DNA from: a virus
Length of the DNA stretch: 64,000 nt
Reading direction: 5' to 3' (one strand)
Virus record (IMG/VR): IMGVR_UViG_3300045988_171102
Of this stretch, positions 6,729-42,697 are shown one piece after another; position 1 is the stretch's first letter, and every line of letters starts with the position of its first letter. Under the pieces are notes generated by a model, which did no database searches, was not told the DNA's origin, and was given only the letters and a program-made list of their open reading frames with translations. The translations under genes and the position numbers were made by a program.

Positions 6729-7043
6729 TTAAAATCCTTTCTCTATAATCTCTTTTTGCTGTTTATCATATGACTCAATATGTTTATTTGATTTTAAAAA
6801 CTTAATTGTATTAGCTACAGCTAAAGCAGGATTTTTACTTCCTTTAAGCTTCTTCAATACAATTGTAGAAATTGAGTATGCTCCAATCATAAGACCTTTT
6901 TTGTAAGCAGCATCATAAACATTTTTAACAGCTTCTTTAATTTTTTCATCAGGAAATGAATCAATTATTTCTTCAACTGTCATATCGTTTACTTCTTTTG
7001 AAATTATTTTCACCACCTTTCGATTTAAAGTCATAATAGACAT
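6729..7043 (-). CDS. hypothetical protein
   Basis: ORF in track with GGTGGTGA SD-like sequence upstream. Confidence 0.5.
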   Translation of the reverse strand: MSIMTLNRKVVKIISKEVNDMTVEEIIDSFPDEKIKEAVKNVYDAAYKKGLMIGAYSISTIVLKKLKGSKNPALAVANTIKFLKSNKHIESYDKQQKEIIEKGF

Positions 7044-7089: not shown

Positions 7090-7105
7090 TTACAAATGAC
7101 GGTCA
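7090..7105 (-). promoter_or_regulatory. copy a of the 16-nt motif TGACCGTCAYTTGTAA (read on the minus strand)
   Basis: Plus strand reads TTACAAATGACGGTCA. On the minus strand, TTGTAA is followed 17 nt later by TAAAAT, upstream of the 6729..7043 gene. Confidence 0.5.
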
Positions 7106-10099: not shown

Positions 10100-10175
10100 T
10101 GGTGACACAGAAGAGATTTGAACTCTCACTTTACAGATTTTAAGTCTGCTGTCTCTGCCGTTGGACTACTGTGTC
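10100..10175 (-). tRNA. tRNA with anticodon UAA (Leu by anticodon) but a short variable loop; CCA encoded
   Basis: Hand-folded cloverleaf. Acceptor GACACAG/CTGTGTC; anticodon stem GCAGA/TCTGT with loop CTTAAAA; T arm GAGAG-TTCAAAT-CTCTT; A73; CCA. Confidence 0.65.
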
Positions 10176-10336: not shown

Positions 10337-10411
10337 TGGCTGAGCAGGCGGGAATTGAACCCACGATACTGGAGTCAAAGTCCAGTGCCTTAACCGCTTG
10401 GCGACTGCTCA
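10337..10411 (-). tRNA. tRNA-Gln (anticodon UUG), CCA encoded
   Basis: Hand-folded. Acceptor TGAGCAG/CTGCTCA with U1:A72 and G73 as in bacterial tRNA-Gln; anticodon stem CTGGA/TCCAG with loop CTTTGAC; T arm GTGGG-TTCAATT-CCCGC. Confidence 0.8.
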
Positions 10412-10511: not shown

Positions 10512-11408
10512 TCAGACTTCCAAGCCAACACCATATTTTTCAACAAAATCATCAATTTCCTTTTGTTGAATATTAATATAGGCAGCCGTTATTTTTTGAC
10601 TGGAATGACCAAGAAATTCTGATGTAATTTGAAGTTCTTTGACATCCGTTGTATGATCTACAACATTTCGGGCAATTGTCTTTCGTAAGCTATGTGTTCC
10701 ATAATGTTTACAAAACATTTGTGGATTTTTACTATGCAGTTTTTTTGTTAATCTCTGAATGACTTTTCTCATTCCATCCACTGTATTTGGTTCATCTGGA
10801 GTGAAGCACTTAGGAAACAGCCAATCTGACATTTTTAATTTACAATTTCCATGAAGTTGATTATATTTTCCTAATTCACGGAAATAATATTGTAAAGCTG
10901 ATTTAGCAAAAGAGTTAATCTTCACATGAGCATATTTCTTAGTTTTTTGCTCATGTAAATTAATGTATTCCCCAACACTTATCCCATTAGAACTGGTTTG
11001 CAAAACATCTCCAACCTTTAAACTTACAATATCACCTGCTCTTCGAGCTGTATTTACACTCAATACTATATAAAGGTAATTTCTCAAACTGTTTATATAA
11101 TATTTTGAAGGTTTTAAAAGCTCTTCGAGCATGAGCTTTACTTCATTGGGCGTGAAAGCATCAGTGCTTTTATCAGTAATTTTCTTTGTAACTAAATAAT
11201 TATTGTCTACTTCAATACAATCAATTAAATTTTCGTTATCGTTAAAATATAATTCATCCTCATTGTCCATTTGTTCAAGATAACGATTTATTTCAACAAC
11301 ATTATCAAGATAACTTTTCCCGCTTATTTCAGTATTATCATTTGTAACAATGTTAATATCGGGAACATATTGCTCCTTAAATCCAATCAAAGCCAATTGC
11401 TGACTCAT
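10512..11408 (-). CDS. int: tyrosine recombinase / phage integrase
   Basis: Catalytic signature ARRAGD (R), HSLRKT (HxxR) and LGHSS...AAY (H...Y). Confidence 0.85.
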   Translation of the reverse strand: MSQQLALIGFKEQYVPDINIVTNDNTEISGKSYLDNVVEINRYLEQMDNEDELYFNDNENLIDCIEVDNNYLVTKKITDKSTDAFTPNEVKLMLEELLKPSKYYINSLRNYLYIVLSVNTARRAGDIVSLKVGDVLQTSSNGISVGEYINLHEQKTKKYAHVKINSFAKSALQYYFRELGKYNQLHGNCKLKMSDWLFPKCFTPDEPNTVDGMRKVIQRLTKKLHSKNPQMFCKHYGTHSLRKTIARNVVDHTTDVKELQITSEFLGHSSQKITAAYINIQQKEIDDFVEKYGVGLEV

Positions 11409-11452: not shown

Positions 11453-11468
11453 TTACAAGTGACGGTCA
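11453..11468 (-). promoter_or_regulatory. copy b of the 16-nt motif TGACCGTCAYTTGTAA (read on the minus strand)
   Basis: Plus strand reads TTACAAGTGACGGTCA. Lies between a bidirectional terminator and the int start. Confidence 0.5.
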
Positions 11469-13956: not shown

Positions 13957-14136
13957 TTATATTAGGTTTAATTCTTTAGTTAAGCGTAAAGCTATTACTG
14001 ATTTAAAATTTCTTACAGGTACAGATACAGTATTCATTCCATTGCCATATATCGCATGATTACCATTCTGCCTAAGAAAACTATACCCATTATTCCTTAA
14101 CTTTCTTAAAAAGGCTCTTTCATTTACCTGTTTCAA
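13957..14136 (-). CDS. HicA-like mRNA interferase toxin (59 aa, TTG start)
   Basis: Own translation (M)KQVNERAFLRKLRNNGYSFLRQNGNHAIYGNGMNTVSVPVRNFKSVIALRLTKELNLI. HicA pattern L.k.Gf...rq.GsH..y. The TTG start overlaps the upstream TGA stop (TTGA). Below the ORF-track cutoff. Confidence 0.6.
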   Translation of the reverse strand: MKQVNERAFLRKLRNNGYSFLRQNGNHAIYGNGMNTVSVPVRNFKSVIALRLTKELNLI

Positions 14137-14363
14137 TTATAAATTTCCTCCAATTCTTGAATAGTCGATGACAAATCATCAAGTAAATCCTCAAAGTTAT
14201 CATAGGACTCACAGTTCTCTTCATATCTTTCTGAGTTTTGCAAATTTTCAGGAACAGAATCTAAATACTCTTCTTCTTCGGAAAGAATATTTTCTAACTT
14301 ACCAATGCATATATTAATAGAATCTATTTCTACCTTAATTTTCTTTCTTCTTAAATTGTTCAT
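14133..14363 (-). CDS. small acidic protein (PENLQNSERYEE motif)
   Basis: ORF in track; translationally coupled to the HicA-like ORF. Confidence 0.55.
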   Translation of the reverse strand: MNNLRRKKIKVEIDSINICIGKLENILSEEEEYLDSVPENLQNSERYEENCESYDNFEDLLDDLSSTIQELEEIYN

Positions 14364-14475: not shown

Positions 14476-14577
14476 AGGCTTAGAAAATGGGTAGGCTAAC
14501 GCTGACCATCTTTCGATAGCTTACTTGGTATAGACATCACCAGATTTTCGCAGGTCGAAGTGATGTCTATTTTTTTA
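14476..14577 (+). ncRNA. candidate small RNA A (about 100 nt), antisense orientation to the surrounding operons
   Basis: Promoter TTGACA (14441-14446), 17-nt spacer, TATCAT (14464-14469). Terminator ATAGACATCAC...GTGATGTCTAT (14530-14570) followed by T7. No plausible ORF. TSS is estimated. Confidence 0.45.
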
Positions 14578-14594: not shown

Positions 14595-14879
14595 TTAAAC
14601 ATCTTCCGATACATAATGTTCGTACCGTAATCTATTTAACAATTCTTCAAGCGTAATTGATAGGGCGTATTCTTTGTCTGTCATACCGCCTATAATAGAT
14701 TTTTTAAGACTAAATCTGCTTACTATCTGTATGTCAGGCGAATTTGCAACAGAGCGAAACGAAATAATAACATAACATCTCAAATCTTTACCATAGAGCC
14801 GAATGTCATTTTCTACTCTTTCTATCATCTCGGTATGATTAACTTCAATGGGTTTATCGTTATTGTCAAACCACGGCAT
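14595..14879 (-). CDS. hypothetical protein
   Basis: ORF in track; overlaps the upstream gene end. Confidence 0.5.
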   Translation of the reverse strand: MPWFDNNDKPIEVNHTEMIERVENDIRLYGKDLRCYVIISFRSVANSPDIQIVSRFSLKKSIIGGMTDKEYALSITLEELLNRLRYEHYVSEDV

Positions 14880-30697: not shown

Positions 30698-31603
30698 TTA
30701 TTTATTTTCGGGTTTTCCGGCTTCAGTTTTTGTCTTTGAAGGCTTTTCAGCTTCTTTTTTCGGTTTATTTTCCTTTTCGGGTTTTATAGTTTTTGCACAA
30801 CTATTTTTACTCTTAATGACAAATTGTTCGTCATTGATTTTTGACTTTACAAGATTAAACAAGTGTTTTTCCATCTTTTTTTCACCTGCAAAAGTGATAA
30901 GTCTTTTGTTCTCGGCACATTTTGCGCAGCTATCAATAATGTAGTGAACATCTTTTTTGCTGACAAGTAAATTAAAGTCCGGAAGCATCAGCTTCAGAAG
31001 CTCAGCAAGTGCCTTTTGTATTGTATTAATTGAAACCGAAGAAGGGCGAAATACTGCAAAATCAGAGTCAGAATTAGTATTTGGCACATTTTCAAATTTT
31101 TGAATTGTTTTTGCTTCCTGCTGATTTTTTGCAAATCGGAAACAAAGAATATTAAAAAGTGTTAAAGCAAAATCATATTTGAGATCGGTCAAGTTTTTAT
31201 ATTTTGCTTTAATAGCTGCAAAATCAATAAATTTTGACTTTTCATTAAAGTTAAAGTCTTTATCAATTTTAATAAAGCCGTTCATAAATTCATTTTTACA
31301 AATAAATTCAATTAGGTTTTTGCGGTCATCTTTAAACCGTAAAACGATTTCATTGATCTTAAAATCAGAATAGTAGTTGTTGAAATCATTGCAAAAGTCA
31401 ACATTTTCATTGAACAAGTCAAAATCATTATTTTTTCTTGCGTATGTAAAATTGTTTTTGAGAGCTTCTTTAATGCCTTCAAATTCTTCTTGCGTGTGTT
31501 CCTGCTGCAAATTTGTTTTTTTATCAAATTCGCAAAAGGGATTAGCTGAATAAGTCAAAATGTTTTCGGTTGTTGCCGTTGTTGTTGTGTTAGTTTTTTT
31601 CAT
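30698..31603 (-). CDS. hypothetical protein with Lys/Glu/Pro-rich C-terminal tail
   Basis: ORF in track; SD AGGAGGTAA upstream. Confidence 0.5.
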   Translation of the reverse strand: MKKTNTTTTATTENILTYSANPFCEFDKKTNLQQEHTQEEFEGIKEALKNNFTYARKNNDFDLFNENVDFCNDFNNYYSDFKINEIVLRFKDDRKNLIEFICKNEFMNGFIKIDKDFNFNEKSKFIDFAAIKAKYKNLTDLKYDFALTLFNILCFRFAKNQQEAKTIQKFENVPNTNSDSDFAVFRPSSVSINTIQKALAELLKLMLPDFNLLVSKKDVHYIIDSCAKCAENKRLITFAGEKKMEKHLFNLVKSKINDEQFVIKSKNSCAKTIKPEKENKPKKEAEKPSKTKTEAGKPENK

Positions 31604-31940
31604 TTTTTGTTACCTCCTAAAAAATGAATAATAAAATATATTTATTGTTGTTTTTTCAAAATGATATAATTTACCTGCGGAATTTAGTACCATTTCTAAA
31701 AACAAAATGAATACAAAATGTAAAAATATGATAGATTTGAAATCTTTTAAAAATTCAATTTCATGAAGTTTTTTTGTTTGAGCTTCAAAAAATTCATTTT
31801 GCAGCCCGAAAAAGATTTTTTTGTCTATATTTTTCAAAGATCTAAAAAATAATTCAAGCACATTAAAATTAACGGATGATTTATTTTTTTTAATTGATGG
31901 GATAGGACTGATAGGCTCAACCCTTCAGAAACCGTTTAAT

Positions 31941-32141
31941 TTATTGAATTATAGGCGTTTTATATATTTCAGTTTCCCCATTATATGTAATTGCTATATT
32001 GTTATTTGAAGTATAATCCACCTCTAAATGTTTAAGTATATAAGACCCTGTAATTTTAACAGTACAAATGACAGTACATGCAAAAATAACAATTATTGCA
32101 AAAATTAATGCTATTTTTTTACAGTTACTAAAAGATTTCAT
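31941..32141 (-). CDS. small signal-anchor membrane protein; first gene of the leftward arm
   Basis: ORF in track; GGAGGT SD upstream; N-terminal hydrophobic helix. Confidence 0.5.
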   Translation of the reverse strand: MKSFSNCKKIALIFAIIVIFACTVICTVKITGSYILKHLEVDYTSNNNIAITYNGETEIYKTPIIQ

Positions 32142-32172
32142 TTTGTTACCTCCACAGTTTTTTTGATTATGT

Positions 32173-32201
32173 TTGACAAAGAATAAATAATAATGTATGA
32201 T
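32173..32201 (+). promoter_or_regulatory. sigma70-like promoter of the RHH gene
   Basis: TTGACA, 17-nt spacer, TATGAT. Confidence 0.55.
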
Positions 32202-32351
32202 ATGTTTTAGATTTTAAACATCTTTTTTTCCTTTTTGTCTACGACAATTATATCACAAGTTGTTACATTTTTCAAGCGTTATTTTATACAAAGATATAAC
32301 AACTTGTTATATCGGTTTTATATAAACTGCACAATAACAGAAGGTGATACA

Positions 32352-32573
32352 ATGACAATAAATAACAATAGCAATAACAATAATTTACAAAATAAAACTT
32401 CAGAAGCTCGAAAAAAAGCAAGTGCAAAATATACTAAAAAAACATATAAAAACAAAACGGTATATATTAAATTAACTGATTTAGAAAAGATTGACGCATA
32501 CCTTCAAAGCGTGGGTATGAGCTGCACACAGTTTTTTTATAAAGCGTTAAGGGATAATGGTGTAGATGTATAA
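32352..32573 (+). CDS. ribbon-helix-helix (CopG/Arc-like) DNA-binding protein
   Basis: Start moved to MTINNN, which follows SD GAAGGTGA. KTVYIKLTDLEKIDAYLQSVGMSCTQFFYKALRD fits the strand-helix-helix pattern. Confidence 0.45.
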   Translation: MTINNNSNNNNLQNKTSEARKKASAKYTKKTYKNKTVYIKLTDLEKIDAYLQSVGMSCTQFFYKALRDNGVDV

Positions 32574-32606
32574 ATATTATTGTTTATGGCAGGCAGGAAG
32601 ATAGGC

Positions 32607-32631
32607 AAGAAAAAAAGCACAAAAGTGCTTT
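32607..32631 (-). terminator. intrinsic terminator oriented for leftward transcription
   Basis: The AAAGCAC-AAAA-GTGCTTT hairpin has its U-run (T7) only on the minus strand. Confidence 0.45.
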
Positions 32632-34364
32632 AACAAATTAAAGTGTTATAAAAAATATAAGTATTTATTTCGTTGAAGTGCATTTATATATACTTATAAA
32701 TAATATAACTGTATAATCAATGAATGCACGAAGTCTTTTAATACTTTAATGTACTAAAGTGTTATAATAAATATAACTGTATTTTCTCCCGCTCCCACGA
32801 ACTTATAAAACAGCTCTTCAAGCTCTTTTCTTCTTTTCTAACTGTCCGCTTTTTGATGTTTTGTGGACAATTAACAAGTTTTTTAATGCCGATGAAGTAA
32901 GATAACGCAAGCTGCTAAAACAAATAAGAAACAATTTTTTTCAAATTTTAAGAATTAAAATAATCAAAAAACCTCCGATATTATCTATCTTTTTTTTGAT
33001 TTTCTTAAAGTTTAAAGTATAATGCAAAAGCAAAAAAATACAATAATTTATAATTCAAATTTCATAACGCTAACGCTTTATGCCGTACACTAAACGGCTA
33101 TATATAGGGGGGTAGTTTACATTCCCTAAACGATTTTCATTTCCAATAAAGGGCATAGTACACTCATCCAAATATTCGCCACCAAAAATCCAATTATGAA
33201 TTTCCCCACCTCCCCTATCTCTAAAATCCCCTATTTTTTACTCTTATATTTTTGACCACTTTTTTTCAACCAATTTAAAAATTATTAATGCTTTATAAAT
33301 TCCTTAAATACCGCATATTCAAGCCATTTTTTACTTATTAAACCTACACAACATTATTTTCATATTTAACCCCTTTAAACTTCCTTAAAACCTCATTGCC
33401 AAGCCATTTTCACGAACTTAACATAGAATTAATAAAAAAACGCAATTTTACAAATTATAGTATCCCCAATAATACAATTAATATATTCTTTAGGTTTTAA
33501 GCCATTTTTTAAATAATTTACGCTTTAAATAATTTCATAATCTTAATAGATTCAATATTCAAGTTCATTCCAATTCATTTTCTTAAAATACCGTATATCT
33601 AAATGCAAAAAAATACTTTATTTTTTTCAACTGCTATTTCTGTAACCATATACAACTTTTAACTTATTACTCTTATTTCCCATTATTGCTTAATAATCAT
33701 ATTAAAAAACAATTTCAATTCTTAGTTTAACCACTCATTTTTGTATGAAGTGGTCTTTTTATTTCTTAAAGATCTAATTAAACAACCACACTAACGCTAC
33801 AGTAAAATTACAAAAATTATTATGTCAGACAACAAATTGAAAATAAGAGACGAGTAAACTCGGATGTTATTTTCTGTTTGTTGTCGTAAACAGTTGTTGA
33901 TTGTTTTACCTTCAGGTGAAACAAGAAATGACTGTTTACTTTTATTGGCTTGGCAACAATTATGTGATAAGAAATTTATTTGTTATAATTCACAATAATA
34001 AGTATCTCTTATGCTCTTCATAGTCTCTATACGCTCTCAGATTGCAATGAACTCTCTTTTATGTAAAAAATACCCTAATACACCAATAACTTTGCTTACA
34101 ATCAATTTTTAAGCCTTTTAGAGCACATTCTGTTTTATTTAATTCTTTAATAATTACTTTTAAAAAATACAACATATCTCTATTTTGCTCTATTTTGCCC
34201 TGTATTCGATTTTTTGGTTTAGCAATGTAATTATACTATTTTTGTATTTTAGTTTAATACAAGCCAATTTTCGCAAGAATAGAATAAGTTTTGAACGCAA
34301 ATGCTTATTACATATTGATTTAATATTAATTTAATAATATTTTTTACTTTTTTTACTGAAACTA

Positions 34365-34392
34365 TTGCAATTTTAAAATTATCTGTTATAAT
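34365..34392 (+). promoter_or_regulatory. strong sigma70-like promoter with extended -10, firing rightward
   Basis: TTGCAA, 16-nt spacer ending in TGT, then TATAAT. Confidence 0.55.
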
Positions 34393-34410
34393 ATATTTTA
34401 GACATATCAG

Positions 34411-34426
34411 TTACAAGTGACGGTTA
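34411..34426 (-). promoter_or_regulatory. copy c of the 16-nt motif (TAACCGTCACTTGTAA on the minus strand)
   Basis: Plus strand reads TTACAAGTGACGGTTA. On the minus strand, TTGTAA is followed after 17 nt by TATTAT. Inverted relative to copy d. Confidence 0.5.
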
Positions 34427-34451
34427 AAGATTATTTGTATTTACATGTTCA

Positions 34452-34557
34452 GGATTAAATAAGCGTTAGCGTTTTAATCCGTTTAAGGTTTAATTATCGC
34501 TAAGCGTTAGCTTAGTGAGAAATAAACCGCAATCAGCCCCCGTAGCGTTAGCTACGG
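34452..34557 (+). repeat. three consecutive stem-loops sharing the apex AGCGTTAGC (GC-GUUA-GC)
   Basis: GGATTAAA(taAGCGTTAGCgt)TTTAATCC at 34452-34480; GCTAAGC-GTTA-GCTTAGT at 34499-34516; CCGTAGC-GTTA-GCTACGG at 34540-34557. Confidence 0.75.
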
Positions 34558-34621
34558 CACAAAAGAATGAATATATCTAACTAATAAGTTTTCTTATTGG
34601 TTTGTTTCTTTTTACTTATGT

Positions 34622-34637
34622 TCACCGTCATTTGTAA
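34622..34637 (+). promoter_or_regulatory. copy d of the 16-nt motif (TCACCGTCATTTGTAA), pointing at the rightward genes
   Basis: Read directly from the plus strand. TTGTAA is followed after 17 nt by TATTTA. Confidence 0.5.
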
Positions 34638-34731
34638 TTTATGTTTTATTTGACTATTTATTTTATTCTTTTGTTTCTTATTTCTTATTTTCTTAATTTT
34701 ATTTTGAATTTAAAGAAAGAACCAAAGAAAG

Positions 34732-34769
34732 GATTTACTTATTACCCCTAAAGGGGTAATAAGTAAATC
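34732..34769. repeat. perfect 18-bp inverted repeat (GATTTACTTATTACCCCT aa AGGGGTAATAAGTAAATC)
   Basis: Read directly. Flanked by TTTCTTAT repeats and an extremely AT-rich tract. About 200 bp upstream of the Rep-like gene. Confidence 0.85.
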
Positions 34770-34970
34770 TAATAATATTAAATTTCTTATATTTATTTCT
34801 TATATTATTTATATTATTAAATATATATTATATTATAAATTTATATTATAAATAACAAAAAGGTGTGAGTAAAAAACGAACACCGTATTAATGAACTTTT
34901 ATTTATAAAAGGTTGTGTGCAAAAAATAGTCGAAAAGTGGTTACAATTTTGTTACAAAAAGGATGATTGA

Positions 34971-35990
34971 ATGGTGTATACATATAAAAATGAGTTTGTC
35001 AATTTTAAGTTACTTGTAAATCAATCAGTTACTTCTAACATGACAATACCAAAAAACATTATTGATGAATTATTCAAAAATAAAAATGAAAAAGTTTGGT
35101 TTGCGTATTATGTTATGAGAGGGCTTGGGCGGTTAATTATGTATTCACAAGCAATACATAGTTGGAAGCAAGATAAATTTCAGGCAAGCAATCAAAAAAA
35201 TGGTAATAAGATTATTGCCGATTATTTTAATAACATAAGACTTATTGAAATCAAACGCAGCTTCACTGACTTGACCAAAGACATATTTGAGAATTTTTCA
35301 TTTTATGTAATTTTTGAAACTTTATTTCCTTTTGTAGATAGAAAGTTTTATAAGTCACTTGAGAAAATCTTTTTTGATGGATTAGAATATTTCATTAAAC
35401 AAGGTAAGATTGTACGAATTTGTAATCGTAGAATTGGTTATCCGTATTATCGGACTATGTATTGGAACATCACTGTTGATATAAAGCCAATTTACATTAC
35501 AGATGAGTTTGCAGATGAATTAACAGTTGAGACACTTAACTTACCTAATAATATTTTAAACACTTCTTACTCATTTAAATCTGAATGGTTAAGTCAATGT
35601 TTTAAGATTACCGAAGCGAATCCAATGAAGGCATTAAGGATGTCGAGAGTTTTGTGTTTTATAATAAATAAAAGAATTAAGCGATATCATAAAAAAATTG
35701 CATATCTATCATTTAGGACATTGAGCAACCTTACAGGACTTTGTGAACGAAGTATTAAAAATTATGTAAAAGAATTACGAGATAATAATTTACTTTATTA
35801 TGACAACTATATTTTAATTGCGAATCCTCTGAAGCAGGTGTGTAAGTATAGCAAAAATTTTTATTGCCTGCCTGAAGATAAAGACTATTTAGAGAAAATA
35901 GTTGAAAAATATAGAATTAAAAAAATTGAAGCAGAACAAAATACAAAAGCGAAACAACCAATAAATGAAATGATAGAAAATTTTGAATGA
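34971..35990 (+). CDS. putative replication initiator / DNA-binding protein with C-terminal winged-HTH
   Basis: ISFRTLSNLTGLCERSIKNYVKELRDNNLL is HTH-like. Sits next to the iteron/palindrome/AT-rich region. Confidence 0.4.
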   Translation: MVYTYKNEFVNFKLLVNQSVTSNMTIPKNIIDELFKNKNEKVWFAYYVMRGLGRLIMYSQAIHSWKQDKFQASNQKNGNKIIADYFNNIRLIEIKRSFTDLTKDIFENFSFYVIFETLFPFVDRKFYKSLEKIFFDGLEYFIKQGKIVRICNRRIGYPYYRTMYWNITVDIKPIYITDEFADELTVETLNLPNNILNTSYSFKSEWLSQCFKITEANPMKALRMSRVLCFIINKRIKRYHKKIAYLSFRTLSNLTGLCERSIKNYVKELRDNNLLYYDNYILIANPLKQVCKYSKNFYCLPEDKDYLEKIVEKYRIKKIEAEQNTKAKQPINEMIENFE

Positions 35991-36189: not shown

Positions 36190-36384
36190 TTGATAAATGA
36201 TTATGAAAGGAAAAGTAAAGTTACGAAAAATTTCAATTGCATATGGCACGATGTTTGCGAGGATAATTGTATGAATTGTGAATTTGGTGCGAACATAGAA
36301 GTTTTGGCTGAAAGAGAATATCGAGAAAGTCTAAACGAGAGACAGGAATATTACCTTGATATTATTGCAGATTTTAATGACTAA
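36190..36384 (+). CDS. small Cys-containing hypothetical protein
   Basis: ORF in track (TTG start). Confidence 0.4.
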   Translation: MINDYERKSKVTKNFNCIWHDVCEDNCMNCEFGANIEVLAEREYRESLNERQEYYLDIIADFND

Positions 36385-39959: not shown

Positions 39960-40071
39960 AAATAGCTCATTTTTTGCAAAAAACGGCAAAAAACTAAGTT
40001 TTTTAAATTGAAATCTTCAAAAAAGCCAGTATTTAAGCCATTTTTTATAATAAATAAAAGATGTATATGGT

Positions 40072-40102
40072 AAAGAGAGTGAACCTCCCCATCACTCTCT
40101 TT
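40072..40102. other. 11-bp stem hairpin without a U-tract, in the RNAP-downstream intergenic region
   Basis: AAAGAGAGTGA-ACCTCCCCA-TCACTCTCTTT. Confidence 0.6.
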
Positions 40103-40131
40103 AAATATAATTTAGAAAGAGTGATTTATTT

Positions 40132-40332
40132 TTGTTTCCTATTACAAAGGAAGAAAGTATAAAAATCAGAAAGAAATATCCTGAAGCAGAAATCAGAAGA
40201 ACTGTTAAGCAGAAAAGTAAGAGGCATAAATATTTTTGTCCAGAGATAAAAAAATATCTTGTATTAATCAAAGATACGAATGAGATAGCTTGTTCAATCT
40301 ATACACGAAAGAGAAAATACTTTAATGCTTAA
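40132..40332 (+). CDS. small basic hypothetical protein
   Basis: ORF in track (TTG start); overlaps the next gene start. Confidence 0.45.
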   Translation: MFPITKEESIKIRKKYPEAEIRRTVKQKSKRHKYFCPEIKKYLVLIKDTNEIACSIYTRKRKYFNA

Positions 40333-41704: not shown

Positions 41705-42697
41705 ATGCCTGTAAGAAGTAAAAAGATATGTCTACTTGACTATGATAAACTAAGCAAAGTTAATTCTGAAACGCTTAAATTATACAAGAAATATGAAGCT
41801 GATATGGCTATTCGAGAATTGTCCAAAAAATCTATTGCAGTGTATTACAATGACCTTGTTAATTGGTGGATGTACATTTATGACTATCAGGATAATCGCT
41901 CAGTCAAAGAAATTAACGAAGATGACATTATTGAATTTATTTACTTCTGTAAGCAGAATGGTAATAACACAGAAAGAATAAAGCATAGAATGGCTTCAAT
42001 TTCAGCTTTTTATAAATTTTTAAGAAAAAGAAAATTAATTGTAGAAAATCCAATGGATTATGTTGACCGTCCAAAAAAAGGTCAAGCTGTTGTTAAGCAG
42101 ACTTTTTTAACTGTTGAACAAGTAGATACAATGAGAAAAGTCTTAAAGCAGAAGATTGAGGATAGTAAAAATAAATCCTTGCGTTGTAAACATGACTCGA
42201 TTATGTTGAGGGTGTATGCAGAATTTTCGCTTATTACAATGGCAAGAATAAATGCTATTGCTAATTTGCGTTGGGAACAAATTGATTTTGCTGAATGTGT
42301 CGCAAACGATGTTATTGAAAAATTAGGCAAAATTGTAAGTTTGTACTTTGATGAGAGCACTAAAGAGTATTTGATTGAATTACAGAATTTCAGAAAAGAA
42401 AACAGAATTAACGATAATGGATGGGTGTTTTATTCTATGGCATCGCAGACAGGCAATCACTTATCAACAACAGCCTTATCTGATATGTGCAAAGAAATTG
42501 GACAAATGATTAGTGTTCCTACCCTACATCCACACGATTTTCGTCATAGTGGTGCTACTTTATACAAGAATGCAGGAATGTCATTAGAAGAAGTTTCTCA
42601 CTGTCTGCATCATGAAAGTACAGAAGTTACCCGAAAATTTTACATCAAAGAAAATGACACTGAATTAAGAGCGAAAAAGAATCAGTGTCATATTTAA
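41705..42697 (+). CDS. tyrosine recombinase (XerC/D- or integrase-like), second copy in the window
   Basis: MARINAIANLRW (R), HPHDFRHSGAT (HxxR) and LHHES...RKFY (H...Y). SAM-like N-terminal domain. Confidence 0.8.
   Translation: MPVRSKKICLLDYDKLSKVNSETLKLYKKYEADMAIRELSKKSIAVYYNDLVNWWMYIYDYQDNRSVKEINEDDIIEFIYFCKQNGNNTERIKHRMASISAFYKFLRKRKLIVENPMDYVDRPKKGQAVVKQTFLTVEQVDTMRKVLKQKIEDSKNKSLRCKHDSIMLRVYAEFSLITMARINAIANLRWEQIDFAECVANDVIEKLGKIVSLYFDESTKEYLIELQNFRKENRINDNGWVFYSMASQTGNHLSTTALSDMCKEIGQMISVPTLHPHDFRHSGATLYKNAGMSLEEVSHCLHHESTEVTRKFYIKENDTELRAKKNQCHI

What the first reader, a model, noticed from the sequence alone, without database searches (positions are those of the whole stretch)
34411..34637. 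Three stem-loops with identical GC-GUUA-GC apexes, bracketed by inverted copies of a 16-nt motif
Inverted copies TTACAAGTGACGGTTA (34411-34426) and TCACCGTCATTTGTAA (34622-34637) flank a 195-bp segment. That segment holds three hairpins in a row: 34452-34480, 34499-34516 and 34540-34557. Their stems differ, but every tip presents AGCGUUAGC; two are clean GUUA tetraloops closed by G-C/C-G. The segment starts about 20 nt downstream of the strong promoter at 34365-34392, so the hairpins would form the 5' leader of a rightward transcript. Reiterated identical loops on different stems suggest binding sites. The binder could be a protein (antiterminator or coat-like, a ParB/Rep-like DNA binder on cruciforms, or a primase ssi signal) or a complementary RNA. 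The inverted repeats also fit an invertible-segment layout.
Basis: seen in the sequence. Interest (0 to 1): 0.75.

Follow-up and report, generated by a model that had tools for sequence, protein, structure and literature searches.

The report
Structured leader with three matching hairpins
Just downstream of the early promoter that drives a gut SPβ-like phage's own RNA polymerase gene lies a conserved folded leader with three hairpins carrying the same tip, probably repeated docking sites on the RNA for an unidentified factor; it is not an invertible DNA switch.

Summary
Three strong hairpins (34452-34480, 34498-34517, 34540-34557) each present AGCGTTAGC. The 9-mer occurs 5 times in 64 kb against 0.13 expected. 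The flanking 16-nt inverted copies exist (14 of 16 complementary).

- The 16-nt motif TTACAARTGACGGTNA has two further exact copies (7090, 11453) in intergenic DNA, so it is a dispersed operator- or promoter-like element.
- AGCGTTAGC has two further, weakly structured copies (33069-, 14495-).
- The window is an SPβ-like phage of the human gut. The element sits in the gap that corresponds to SPβ's yonR|yonP gap, after a sigma-A-type promoter and upstream of the YonO-like RNA polymerase operon.

In the one divergent homologue (polymerase 84% identical), the hairpins persist with compensatory changes, but their loops differ (GATA, ATTA, and one hairpin replaced). This is the opposite of "stems vary, loops fixed". 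All 12 independent contigs examined show one orientation.

Best reading (confidence about 0.4): a folded 5' leader RNA that begins at +1, with reiterated loop sites for an unknown binder. Single-stranded-DNA and double-stranded-operator readings are not excluded. No Rfam family matches.

The parts
34365..34392 (+). Sigma-A/sigma-70-type early promoter, TTGCAA-16-TGTTATAAT (extended -10). Predicted +1 is near 34399-34401.
   Evidence: A promoter at the equivalent place is seen by eye in L015 (TTGCTT-17-TGGTATCAT) and in L031/L033 (TTGACT-17-TATAAT).
34401..34426 (+). 5' strand of the long-range closing helix P1. It includes the left copy of the 16-nt motif TTACAAGTGACGGTTA (34411-34426).
   Evidence: Minimum-energy and centroid folds pair it with 34620-34645. 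The L015 fold keeps the core UGACGGU/ACCGUCA and has a different, still complementary outer helix that starts at the predicted +1. The motif also occurs at 7090 and 11453.
34452..34480 (+). Hairpin H1: an 8-bp stem, an internal A.G mismatch, and the tip GC-GUUA-GC.
   Evidence: (z = -4.3). Kept in L015 with loop GATA, one compensatory pair and a matched one-base deletion in each arm.
34498..34517 (+). Hairpin H2: a 9-bp stem including one G.U pair, with a GUUA loop.
   Evidence: z = -4.7. As DNA, the + strand folds at -7.0 kcal/mol against -4.6 for the - strand. The loop is GUCA in L001, L224 and L226-L228. In L015 a longer hairpin with a TTTA loop occupies this position.
34540..34557 (+). Hairpin H3: a 7-bp stem with a GUUA loop.
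   Evidence: z = -4.3. The stem is invariant in all sequences. The loop is AUUA in L015/L016.
34579..34602 (+). Hairpin H4: a 10-bp A/U-rich stem with a U-rich loop. It is part of the same P1-enclosed domain.
   Evidence: z = -6.6. Conserved in L015.
34620..34645 (+). 3' strand of P1. On the - strand it holds the right copy of the 16-nt motif (34622-34637).
34646..34731 (+). Pyrimidine-rich tract followed by the purine box AAAGAAAGAACCAAAGAAAG. The two are predicted to pair with each other.
   Evidence: The purine box is conserved in L015 and in L031/L033.
34732..34769 (+). Perfect 18-bp hairpin at the end of the leader domain. It may be an RNase III-type site, a leftward terminator or an origin element; this is undecided.
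   Evidence: (z = -8.0). Eight pairs change on both sides in L015 and stay paired. A different perfect hairpin occupies the same position in L031/L033.
33069..33077 (-). Fourth AGCGTTAGC copy, at the tip of a weak hairpin (CATAA-A-GC-GTTA-GC-G-TTATG). It lies 30 nt from the conserved GGGG..TTTACAT box.
   Evidence: It shares the 13-mer AAGCGTTAGCGTT with H1. In L015 this position holds a different hairpin, ACGCT-GAA-AGCGT.
14495..14503 (-). Fifth AGCGTTAGC copy, intergenic (between ORFs 14595-14879 and 14133-14363), with poor hairpin potential.
   Evidence: z = -1.9.
7090..7105 (+). Extra exact copy of the 16-nt motif (TTACAAATGACGGTCA). It is intergenic, about 45 nt upstream of the leftward gene 6729-7043, and overlaps a promoter-like TTGTAA-17-TAAAAT.
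11453..11468 (+). Extra exact copy of the 16-nt motif (TTACAAGTGACGGTCA). It is intergenic, about 45 nt upstream of the leftward gene 10512-11408, just after a hairpin.

Best explanation
The segment is the folded 5' leader RNA of the early rightward operon of an SPβ-like gut phage. That operon runs Rep-like HTH gene, 184-aa ORF, YonO-type single-subunit RNA polymerase, and then the packaging and head genes.

Proposed steps, each marked as shown, predicted or inferred:
1. Host RNA polymerase starts at the sigma-A-type promoter at 34365-34392 (predicted from sequence).
2. The first ~245 nt (34401-34645) fold into a domain closed by a long-range helix P1 that begins at +1. The domain encloses four hairpins, H1 to H4 (predicted, with comparative support).
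3. H1 to H3 each display the same apex, A-GC-GUUA-GC. In this lineage they act as reiterated docking sites for one sequence-specific factor that binds single-stranded nucleic acid. The factor, phage or host, is not identified (inferred).
4. Binding, together with the 5'-terminal helix, would set the stability, processing or read-through of the long (~570 nt) untranslated leader. It would thereby set how much phage RNA polymerase is made (inferred).
5. The two arms of the "inverted repeat" do double duty. They form the core of P1, and they are also two copies of a dispersed 16-nt DNA element, TTACAARTGACGGTNA, that sits at or near promoters. The left copy covers about +12 to +27. This suggests an operator for a phage regulator, in the way SPβ's master repressor MrpR binds a repeated element at the yonP promoter (inferred by analogy).
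For: Identity of the phage:
- The 958-aa protein matches phrog_8308/phrog_4291 ("RNA-dependent RNA polymerase"), and some homologues carry PF05183.
- Relatives carry YonG_N, YonD_N and YonB domains in SPβ gene order.

Promoter and fold:
- The fold has z = -9.8, with P1 in both the minimum-energy and centroid structures.
- The single hairpins have z = -4.3 to -4.7.

Strand asymmetry:
- H2 and P1 use G.U pairs.
- The L224 group turns an H1 G-C into G.U.
- As single strands, H1 and H2 fold better on the + strand than on the - strand.

Comparative support:
- On window-type sequences plus L015, 99.3% of cells pair.
- 15 pairs change on both sides and stay paired, against 0-3 when partners are slid and 2.4 in shuffles.
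- L015 keeps P1, H1, H3 and H4. Its outer P1 helix has a different sequence (AUAGUGAU/AUCACUAU against AGACAUA/UAUGUUU) and again starts right after the -10.
- L031-type phages (polymerase 71-75% identical) also have a strong promoter followed by a terminal-helix-closed hairpin domain of unrelated sequence.
- In the close population, substitutions and a 4-nt insertion fall mostly in the linkers between hairpins, while the stems stay paired.

Spacing: the gap between tips is not held. It is 41/40 in L022, about 45 in L222, and 96 instead of 82 from H1 to H3 in L015. This fits independent hairpins better than phased sites on duplex DNA.

The 9-mer is enriched about 40-fold.

Dispersed 16-mer.

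SPβ precedent for a repeated operator at the yonP promoter: PMC10516654.
Against: - No transcript data exist; the start site and the RNA are predictions.
- All covariation comes from one divergent lineage, so it amounts to one evolutionary comparison. H3 and H4 never vary and are uninformative.
- The loops are not conserved across lineages: GATA, ATTA and a replaced hairpin in L015, and no shared tip in L031. One loop is polymorphic, GUCA. A strict sequence-specific binder is therefore supported only for this lineage.
- The two outlying AGCGTTAGC copies are poor hairpins. They lie upstream of promoter-like sites rather than clearly inside transcripts, which fits a DNA-level site better.
- No + strand intrinsic terminator follows the hairpins, so a nut-like antitermination role has no visible target.
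- No candidate binder was found. The only gene that co-varies with the loops (the 184-aa ORF: 95% identical in L022, 38% in L015) has no family match, and its structure model is unusable (pLDDT 39).
- No Rfam match.
Confidence: 0.4

Rival explanations
1. Duplex-DNA regulatory array. AGCGTTAGC is a double-stranded binding site for a phage regulator. Three copies sit between two inverted copies of the 16-nt operator, and single copies sit at two other control regions. The hairpin potential is secondary.
For: - Both motifs recur at other intergenic sites.
- The outlying 9-mers are poor hairpins and sit upstream of promoter-like sites.
- The exact 41/41 spacing in the window is about four helical turns.
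- The 16-mer copies overlap promoter-like hexamers: TTGTAA-17-TATTAT at 34416-34388 and TTGTAA-17-TAAAAT at 7095-7067.
- SPβ uses a repeated 15-bp operator bound by MrpR at about ten promoters, including yonP (PMC10516654).
Against: - Only the asymmetric 9-mer is shared. The flanks differ at each site yet are self-complementary (6-9 bp), and a duplex-binding protein does not need that.
- Stems are maintained by compensatory change in L015.
- G.T pairs make the two strands unequal.
- The spacing is not conserved among relatives.
Confidence: 0.2
2. Single-stranded DNA hairpins. When the + strand is exposed by replication or supercoil-driven extrusion, the hairpins would serve as priming or initiation signals. 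Models are the single-strand origins of rolling-circle plasmids, phage G4's complementary-strand origin, and hairpin promoters for a phage polymerase as in N4.
For: - All five copies lie on the strand that reads 5'->3' away from the divergence point and GC-skew minimum at about 33-34 kb. For bidirectional replication from there, that is the lagging-strand template.
- The DNA folds are significant.
- H1, H3 and the 33069 copy contain TAGCGT, the CS-6 hexamer found in sso loops.
- GC-GNNA-GC resembles very stable DNA mini-hairpins (from memory, not tested). GCGNNAGC occurs 17 times against 4.4 expected, 14 of them co-oriented with the local genes.
- The promoter used by YonO-type polymerases is unknown (PMC5467207).
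- An AT-rich tract, a large hairpin and a Rep-like gene lie just downstream.
Against: - The RSB element that defines ssoA is absent, with no match within 3 mismatches.
- TAGCGT is not enriched in the window (12 against 12.6 expected) and is missing from H2.
- Strand choice is confounded with gene orientation.
- In SPβ the YonO start site lies downstream of yonO, not upstream, and the equivalent gap here (39960-40325) has no AGCGTTAGC.
- A sigma-A-type promoter, and a helix that starts at its +1 in two lineages, point to RNA.
Confidence: 0.17
3. Purely structural leader. The hairpins and the terminal helix only stabilise or organise the mRNA 5' end. The identical tips reflect common descent or sequence homogenisation and have no binder.
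For: - Loops drift between lineages (GATA, ATTA, TTTA) and within the population (GUCA), while the stems are maintained.
- L031-type leaders have hairpins without any shared tip.
- A helix at the very 5' end is a known stabiliser of mRNA in Firmicutes (general knowledge, not tested here).
Against: - Outside the 9-mer, the three 41-nt units share no similarity (read by eye from the sequence), so recent duplication does not explain the identity.
- Two more exact 9-mers occur elsewhere in intergenic DNA against 0.13 expected for the whole window.
Confidence: 0.13
4. Packaging-related sites. AGCGTTAGC hairpins are recognised by the small terminase or another packaging factor near the pac site.
For: - The gap is syntenic with SPβ's yonR|yonP gap, which holds the mapped genome opening point inside a ~250-bp fragment rich in inverted repeats (10.1101/2021.11.22.469490).
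- The box GGGG-N2-6-TTTACAT from that fragment is present once in the window (33107-33122, 0.05 expected), 30 nt from the 33069 copy. It recurs at the same place and orientation in many relatives.
- Many contigs end at about 34600-34970.
Against: - The three hairpins lie 1.35 kb from the box.
- Contig ends are scattered over about 370 bp and coincide with a low-complexity AT tract that would break assemblies anyway.
- The copy at 14495 is unrelated to packaging.
- Relatives that have the box lack the 9-mer.
Confidence: 0.06
5. Invertible DNA segment flanked by inverted repeats.
For: Inverted 16-nt copies flank 195 bp. A tyrosine recombinase gene lies 7 kb away at 41705-42697.
Against: - The same orientation appears in all 12 independent contigs examined: the window, L001, L005, L007, L022 and L222-L228.
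- The motif has two more unpaired copies, 23-27 kb away.
- In L015 only a 7-bp core is shared between the arms.
- The promoter lies outside the segment, so inversion would not switch it.
Confidence: 0.02

Closest known systems
Lambdoid nut sites (boxB hairpins bound by N protein)
   Same: Short hairpins with a fixed, G...A-type loop lie in the early leader just downstream of an early promoter. One further copy sits on the opposite strand across the divergent control region. Different stems carry the same loop.
   Different: These are tetraloops, not the pentaloop of boxB. No boxA-like element is seen by eye in the leader. No + strand terminator downstream is predicted. There are three tandem copies rather than one. 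No N-like protein was identified. The loops are not conserved in the nearest divergent relative.
Multi-hairpin protein-titrating RNAs (CsrB/RsmZ type)
   Same: Several hairpins on one RNA scaffold present the same short loop motif, and the 5' and 3' ends of the domain pair.
   Different: The motif is GUUA closed by GC, not GGA. No terminator ends a discrete small RNA after P1, so the domain appears to continue into an mRNA. No partner protein is known.
Single-strand origins of rolling-circle plasmids (ssoA, ssoT) and the phage G4 complementary-strand origin
   Same: The hairpins are orientation-specific. A TAGCGT (CS-6)-like sequence sits at the tips of H1 and H3. Three stem-loops in a row also occur in the pBAA1/ICEBs1 sso.
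   Different: RSB is absent. The hairpins are small and separate rather than one ~160-nt folded unit. CS-6 is missing from H2 and not enriched. The host element is a ~100-kb double-stranded phage with its own helicase and primase-like genes.
SPβ repeated element (SPBRE) bound by the master repressor MrpR
   Same: A short repeated element is scattered over intergenic control regions of an SPβ-type phage, including the promoter of the yonP-yonO operon. The 16-nt motif here has that distribution and covers about +12 to +27 of the equivalent promoter.
   Different: The SPBRE sequence could not be recovered for comparison. No MrpR homologue was identified here. The analogy concerns the flanking 16-mer, not the hairpin tips.
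Phage N4 virion RNA polymerase hairpin promoters
   Same: Three DNA hairpins of 5-7 bp with small purine-bounded loops are clustered at one place in a phage that encodes an unusual single-subunit RNA polymerase. The N4 details are from memory.
   Different: The polymerase is unrelated (YonO type). In SPβ its only mapped start site is downstream of the polymerase gene. Nothing here shows initiation at the hairpins.

Membership tests
Any curated RNA family (Rfam 15) | Covariance-model match at or near the gathering score | tested here: not met
   No hit at E <= 1 in 31500-35500. The only hits in the whole window at gathering scores are two tRNAs.
Lambdoid nut / boxB antitermination site | Hairpin with a conserved loop in the early transcript, downstream of an early promoter | tested here: met
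Lambdoid nut / boxB antitermination site | A terminator downstream on the same strand that must be read through | tested here: not met
   No + strand terminator-like site between 34400 and 35200. The 34732-34769 hairpin has a T-rich tail only on the - strand.
Lambdoid nut / boxB antitermination site | A cognate N-like arginine-rich protein and a boxA element | not tested
   No boxA-like sequence was seen by eye in 34400-34700. No systematic search for an N-like protein was made.
ssoA-type single-strand origin | RSB element (TTATGCCGAGAAAATTT) in the loop-distal stem | tested here: not met
   0 matches within 3 mismatches anywhere in the window. The definition is taken from PMC4598088 and PMC8860593.
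ssoA-type single-strand origin | CS-6 (TAGCGT) in the terminal loop | tested here: inconclusive
   TAGCGT overlaps the tips of H1, H3 and the 33069 copy, but not H2 or the 14495 copy, and it is not enriched (12 against 12.6 expected).
ssoA-type single-strand origin | Orientation-dependent conversion of single-stranded to double-stranded DNA | not testable with these tools
   Needs replication assays.
Invertible promoter/segment (fimS, hin type) | Both orientations present in populations | tested here: not met
   One orientation in all 12 independent contigs examined. Assemblies report the majority form, so a rare minority cannot be excluded.
Invertible promoter/segment (fimS, hin type) | Inverted repeats specific to the segment, with an adjacent dedicated recombinase | tested here: not met
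   The motif has four copies, two of them 23-27 kb away. The nearest recombinase-like gene is 7 kb away inside the packaging gene block.
SPβ-like phage (Spbetavirus-like gene order), as context for the locus | YonO-type polymerase followed by exonuclease, YonG, large terminase, portal, YonD and YonB, next to a divergent control gap | tested here: met
   The pac-fragment box GGGG..TTTACAT is shared with SPβ.
SPBRE/MrpR-type repeated operator (for the 16-nt flanking motif) | A repeated element at several promoters, bound by the phage master repressor | tested here: inconclusive
   The distribution fits. Binding and the repressor's identity cannot be tested here, and the SPBRE consensus was not recoverable.

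The most novel reading that the evidence does not exclude
The leader domain is a phage-made multivalent RNA scaffold. A compact, end-paired fold shows three identical GUUA-tipped hairpins that capture several copies of a host or phage RNA-binding protein at the moment the phage commits to making its own YonO-type RNA polymerase. That would be a new class of early-switch RNA in the large, unstudied group of SPβ-like gut phages. A second unexcluded novel reading is that the same hairpins, as single-stranded DNA, are start signals for the YonO-type polymerase, whose promoter rules are unknown.
Probability: 0.12. Interest if true: 0.75.

Novelty: new variant of a known kind. Interest (0 to 1): 0.45.

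Why it matters
SPβ-like phages with YonO-type single-subunit RNA polymerases are abundant in gut metagenomes. The search scored only the 8,000 top candidates and found 3,185 homologue clusters among them. How they control the early operon that encodes the polymerase is unknown.

This locus provides a compact, testable control region made of:
- a strong host-type promoter;
- a dispersed 16-nt operator-like element;
- a folded leader with three identical hairpin tips.

If the tips bind a factor, this would be a simple handle on the lysis or early-to-late switch of this phage group, and a possible orthogonal RNA-protein pair for engineering.

If instead the element is only a structural leader, the value of the finding lies mainly in mapping the control region. 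That includes the likely pac-associated box shared with Bacillus SPβ.

Tried and rejected
- Rfam searches: nothing except two tRNAs.
- BLAST of the element and of the 32900-33260 block against 50,697 phage records: no match.
- A purine-box pattern scan of viral contigs returned low-complexity chance hits. Loci L103-L221 should be ignored.
- A crude scan of 80 polymerase-anchored loci for hairpin tips that recur at least 3 times found nothing comparable in other lineages. It also missed the window's own set, because it required 5 perfect pairs.
- Homologue searches for the Rep-like and 184-aa proteins found only 4 and 2 clusters.
- The AlphaFold model of the 184-aa ORF was unusable (pLDDT 39), so no fold search was run.
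- Attempts to recover the SPβ SPBRE consensus from promoter regions and k-mer counts failed.
- A generic local alignment of the window gap against the SPβ gap was not significant (score 27 against a shuffle mean of 24.7). The shared box was only established with a specific pattern.
- The heptamer TGACGGT is enriched (12 against 2 expected). It is common in the relatives' loci too, and several window copies fall inside long ORFs, so only the full 16-mer was used.
- The genome-contig scan found no isolate genome carrying the element, so the host stays unknown.
- T-box, type III toxin-antitoxin repeat, retron and ANTAR-target readings were considered from memory. They were dropped because the loop size, the lack of repeat similarity or the absence of the partner gene do not fit.
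Full report
**What the window is**

The window is AT-rich (about 30% GC) and has two divergent gene arms that meet near 32-35 kb, which is also where cumulative GC skew turns.
- The right arm encodes a Rep-like HTH_36 protein (34971-35990), a 184-aa ORF, and a 958-aa protein matching phrog_8308/phrog_4291 ("RNA-dependent RNA polymerase"). An exonuclease, a tyrosine-recombinase-like protein, the large terminase and the portal follow.
- Homologues of the 958-aa protein are numerous. The search scored only the 8,000 top candidates and found 3,185 clusters among them. Some carry Pfam PF05183.
- Contigs of relatives carry YonG_N, YonD_N and YonB domains in the same order as Bacillus phage SPβ.
- The window is therefore an SPβ-like phage from human-gut metagenomes. 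The 958-aa protein is the counterpart of YonO, the single-subunit RNA polymerase that transcribes SPβ late genes (PMC5467207).
- The finding lies in a 2.4-kb non-coding gap. That gap corresponds to SPβ's divergent yonR|yonP gap.

**Checking the observation**

- AGCGTTAGC starts at 34462, 34503 and 34544. It occurs 5 times in the window against 0.13 expected.
- The three hairpins fold much better than shuffled sequence, both as RNA (z = -4.3, -4.7, -4.3) and as DNA.
- The region 34400-34780 has z = -9.8. In both the minimum-energy and centroid folds, the two arms of the inverted repeat pair as a long-range helix (P1) that encloses H1-H3 and a fourth hairpin, H4.
- The promoter TTGCAA-16-TGTTATAAT is at 34365-34392.

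Three additions change the picture:
- The 16-nt motif, written TTACAARTGACGGTNA, has four exact copies: 7090+, 11453+, 34411+ and 34622-. The two distant copies lie in intergenic DNA about 45 nt upstream of leftward genes, next to promoter-like hexamers. A bare 16-nt inverted repeat is not unusual in this AT-rich gap, which holds 94 inverted pairs of at least 12 nt.
- AGCGTTAGC also occurs at 33069(-) and 14495(-). Both are intergenic and co-oriented with the local genes, but their hairpins are weak (z = -0.05 and -1.9).
- The H1 tip is only two G-C pairs above an A.G mismatch. H1 shares the 13-mer AAGCGTTAGCGTT with the 33069 copy.

**Comparative evidence**

Close relatives (97-99% identical in this region) were found in 11 further independent contigs (L001, L005, L007, L022, L222-L228). 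All 12 contigs, counting the window, have the segment in the same orientation. In this population:
- substitutions and a 4-nt insertion fall mostly in the linkers between hairpins;
- one H1 change makes a G.U pair;
- about half of the contigs aligned have GTCA instead of GTTA in H2.

The only divergent lineage with a recognisable homologue is L015/L016 (polymerase 84% identical). There:
- H1 is kept, with a matched one-base deletion in each arm and loop GATA;
- H3 is identical except for loop ATTA;
- H2 is replaced by a longer hairpin with a TTTA loop;
- H4 and the P1 core (UGACGGU/ACCGUCA) are kept;
- the outer part of P1 has a different but complementary sequence that again begins immediately after the -10.

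On the alignment, 99.3% of cells pair. Fifteen pairs change on both sides and stay paired, against 0-3 when partners are slid and 2.4 in shuffles. The compensatory pairs fall as follows:

| Helix | Pairs changed on both sides |
|---|---|
| 18-bp hairpin, 34732-34769 | 8 |
| H2 position | 6 |
| H1 | 1 |
| H3 and H4 | 0 (they never vary) |

All of this rests on one lineage, so it is a single evolutionary comparison.

Phages one step further away (L027-L033 and L086; polymerase 71-75% identical) keep the layout but not the sequence. They have a strong promoter, a hairpin domain closed by a helix starting at about +3, a T-rich tract, the purine box AAAGAAAGAACCAAAGAAAG, a perfect hairpin and an AT-rich tract. 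They have no shared hairpin tip. SPβ itself has a short leader at yonP.

So what is conserved is a promoter-proximal folded domain. Identical tips are a feature of the window's own lineage.

**Who might bind**

The Rep-like protein does not track the loops.
- L022 has the window's non-coding region (97% identical, the same three tips), but its Rep is only 52% identical to the window's and 86% identical to L015's.
- L015 has different loops.

The neighbour that does track the loops is the 184-aa ORF (95% identical in L022, 38% in L015). It has no family match, and its structure model failed. This is a weak lead only.

**RNA or DNA**

Points favouring a single-stranded + sense molecule:
- the flanks are self-complementary but differ at each site, which a duplex-binding protein does not need;
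- G.U (G.T) pairs make the + strand fold better than the - strand;
- the spacing between tips is not maintained among relatives.

Points favouring RNA specifically:
- a conserved sigma-A-type promoter lies immediately upstream;
- a terminal helix starts at the predicted +1 in two lineages, and near it in a third.

Points against RNA, or neutral:
- there are no expression data;
- the outlying 9-mers sit upstream of promoter-like sites;
- strand choice cannot separate "sense strand" from "lagging-strand template", because genes and presumed replication direction coincide.

The ssoA comparison fails on its defining RSB element. The CS-6 hexamer TAGCGT overlaps only some tips and is not enriched.

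A nut-like role lacks a downstream + strand terminator.

**The flanking repeat**

The 16-mer recurs at other promoter-proximal intergenic sites, and the left copy covers about +12 to +27 of the early promoter. I therefore read it as an operator- or promoter-associated DNA element that also contributes the core of P1. SPβ offers a precedent: the master repressor MrpR binds a repeated 15-bp element at about ten promoters, including yonP (PMC10516654). I could not recover that element's sequence to compare.

**Packaging context**

In SPβ the genome opening point lies in the yonR|yonP gap, inside a ~250-bp fragment rich in inverted repeats (10.1101/2021.11.22.469490).
- A box from that fragment, GGGG-N2-6-TTTACAT, occurs once in the window (33107-33122, 0.05 expected).
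- It recurs at the same relative place and orientation in many polymerase-anchored loci and in SPβ.
- The 33069 copy of AGCGTTAGC lies 30 nt from it. The three hairpins are 1.35 kb away.
- Many contigs end at 34600-34970, but the ends are scattered and coincide with a low-complexity AT tract.

I treat a packaging role for the hairpins as unlikely.

**Verdict**

The feature is real and under selection as a folded, promoter-proximal element.
- The best-supported mechanism is a structured 5' leader RNA of the early operon that encodes the phage RNA polymerase. Its three identical tips probably act as reiterated docking sites in this lineage (overall confidence about 0.4; the binder sub-claim is lower).
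- The duplex-operator reading (0.2), the single-stranded-DNA reading (0.17) and the purely structural reading (0.13) remain open.
- The invertible-segment idea is effectively excluded.
- The element belongs to no described RNA family. It is best filed as a new variant of the known kind "structured phage leader with reiterated hairpin sites".

Noticed in passing
window 33321-33330, 33401-33410, 33499-33508 and 40035-40044 (all + strand): AAGCCATTTT occurs exactly four times, always on the + strand. Three copies are in the non-coding gap. One is about 75 nt after the stop of the YonO-like polymerase gene, directly before TATAAT and a hairpin. The same motif is in the gaps of L015, L019 and L031. 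In SPβ the YonO start site lies downstream of yonO. The motif could be the phage-polymerase promoter or a regulator box.
   Followed up: partly
window 33107-33122 (wider block about 33075-33200): The box GGGGGGTAGTTTACAT matches GGGGGTATATTTACAT inside SPβ's experimentally mapped ~250-bp pac fragment. The pattern GGGG-N2-6-TTTACAT occurs once in the window (0.05 expected). It is found upstream of the polymerase gene, in the same orientation, in many related loci. It is probably a core packaging or opening-point element of the whole SPβ-like group.
   Followed up: partly
window 7090-7105 and 11453-11468: Two further exact copies of the 16-nt motif that flanks the hairpins lie in intergenic DNA upstream of leftward genes. 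This suggests a phage-wide operator or promoter element.
   Followed up: partly
window 34706-34860; L015 7690-7800; L031 2925-3030; L019 1720-1810: A purine box (AAAGAAAGAACCAAAGAAAG), then a long perfect hairpin, then a very AT-rich repetitive tract. This layout is conserved in position across lineages, with fully compensated stem changes, just upstream of the Rep-like gene. It could be a replication origin, an RNase III site or a leftward terminator.
   Followed up: partly
window about 34600-34970: Contigs of near-identical phages from IMG/VR, ENA and Logan often end here (L002-L004, L006, L020/L021, L224, L225, L228). This is either assembly breakage in the low-complexity AT tract or a hint of a physical end.
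   Followed up: partly
window 33828-33885 and 33886-33939: Two adjacent large imperfect hairpins (arms of 28 and 26 nt, 81-82% complementary) lie in a block that is 82% identical in L015. They sit just upstream of another TGTTATAAT-like -10 at about 33980.
   Followed up: no
L022 10001-10999 compared with window 34971-35990: Module swap. L022 shares about 97% identical non-coding DNA and 98-99% identical downstream genes with the window. Its Rep-like gene, however, is only 52% identical, and is 86% identical to that of L015.
   Followed up: yes
whole window: GCGNNAGC occurs 17 times against 4.4 expected, and 14 of the 17 copies are on the strand co-oriented with the local genes. This may partly reflect codon or skew effects.
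   Followed up: no
window 10100-10175 and 10337-10411 (- strand): tRNA-Leu(UAA) and tRNA-Gln(UUG) genes.
   Followed up: yes
window 13957-14136 (- strand): A 59-aa ORF that looks HicA-toxin-like by eye, directly after a 76-aa acidic ORF. The pair lies downstream of the 14495 copy of AGCGTTAGC. No family search was run.
   Followed up: no
window 36190-36384 (+ strand): A 64-aa ORF with a four-cysteine cluster (C-x5-C-x3-C-x2-C), conserved in L022 (98%), L020 (88%) and L015 (66%). It may be a small zinc-binding regulator.
   Followed up: no
L230 9150-10835 (SPβ NC_001884 59153-60833, - strand): The 1.7-kb yonN-yonK gap of SPβ is unusually GC-rich and looks highly structured. It presumably holds the "unannotated non-coding RNA" mentioned in PMC5467207. 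The window has only a 365-nt gap at that place.
   Followed up: no
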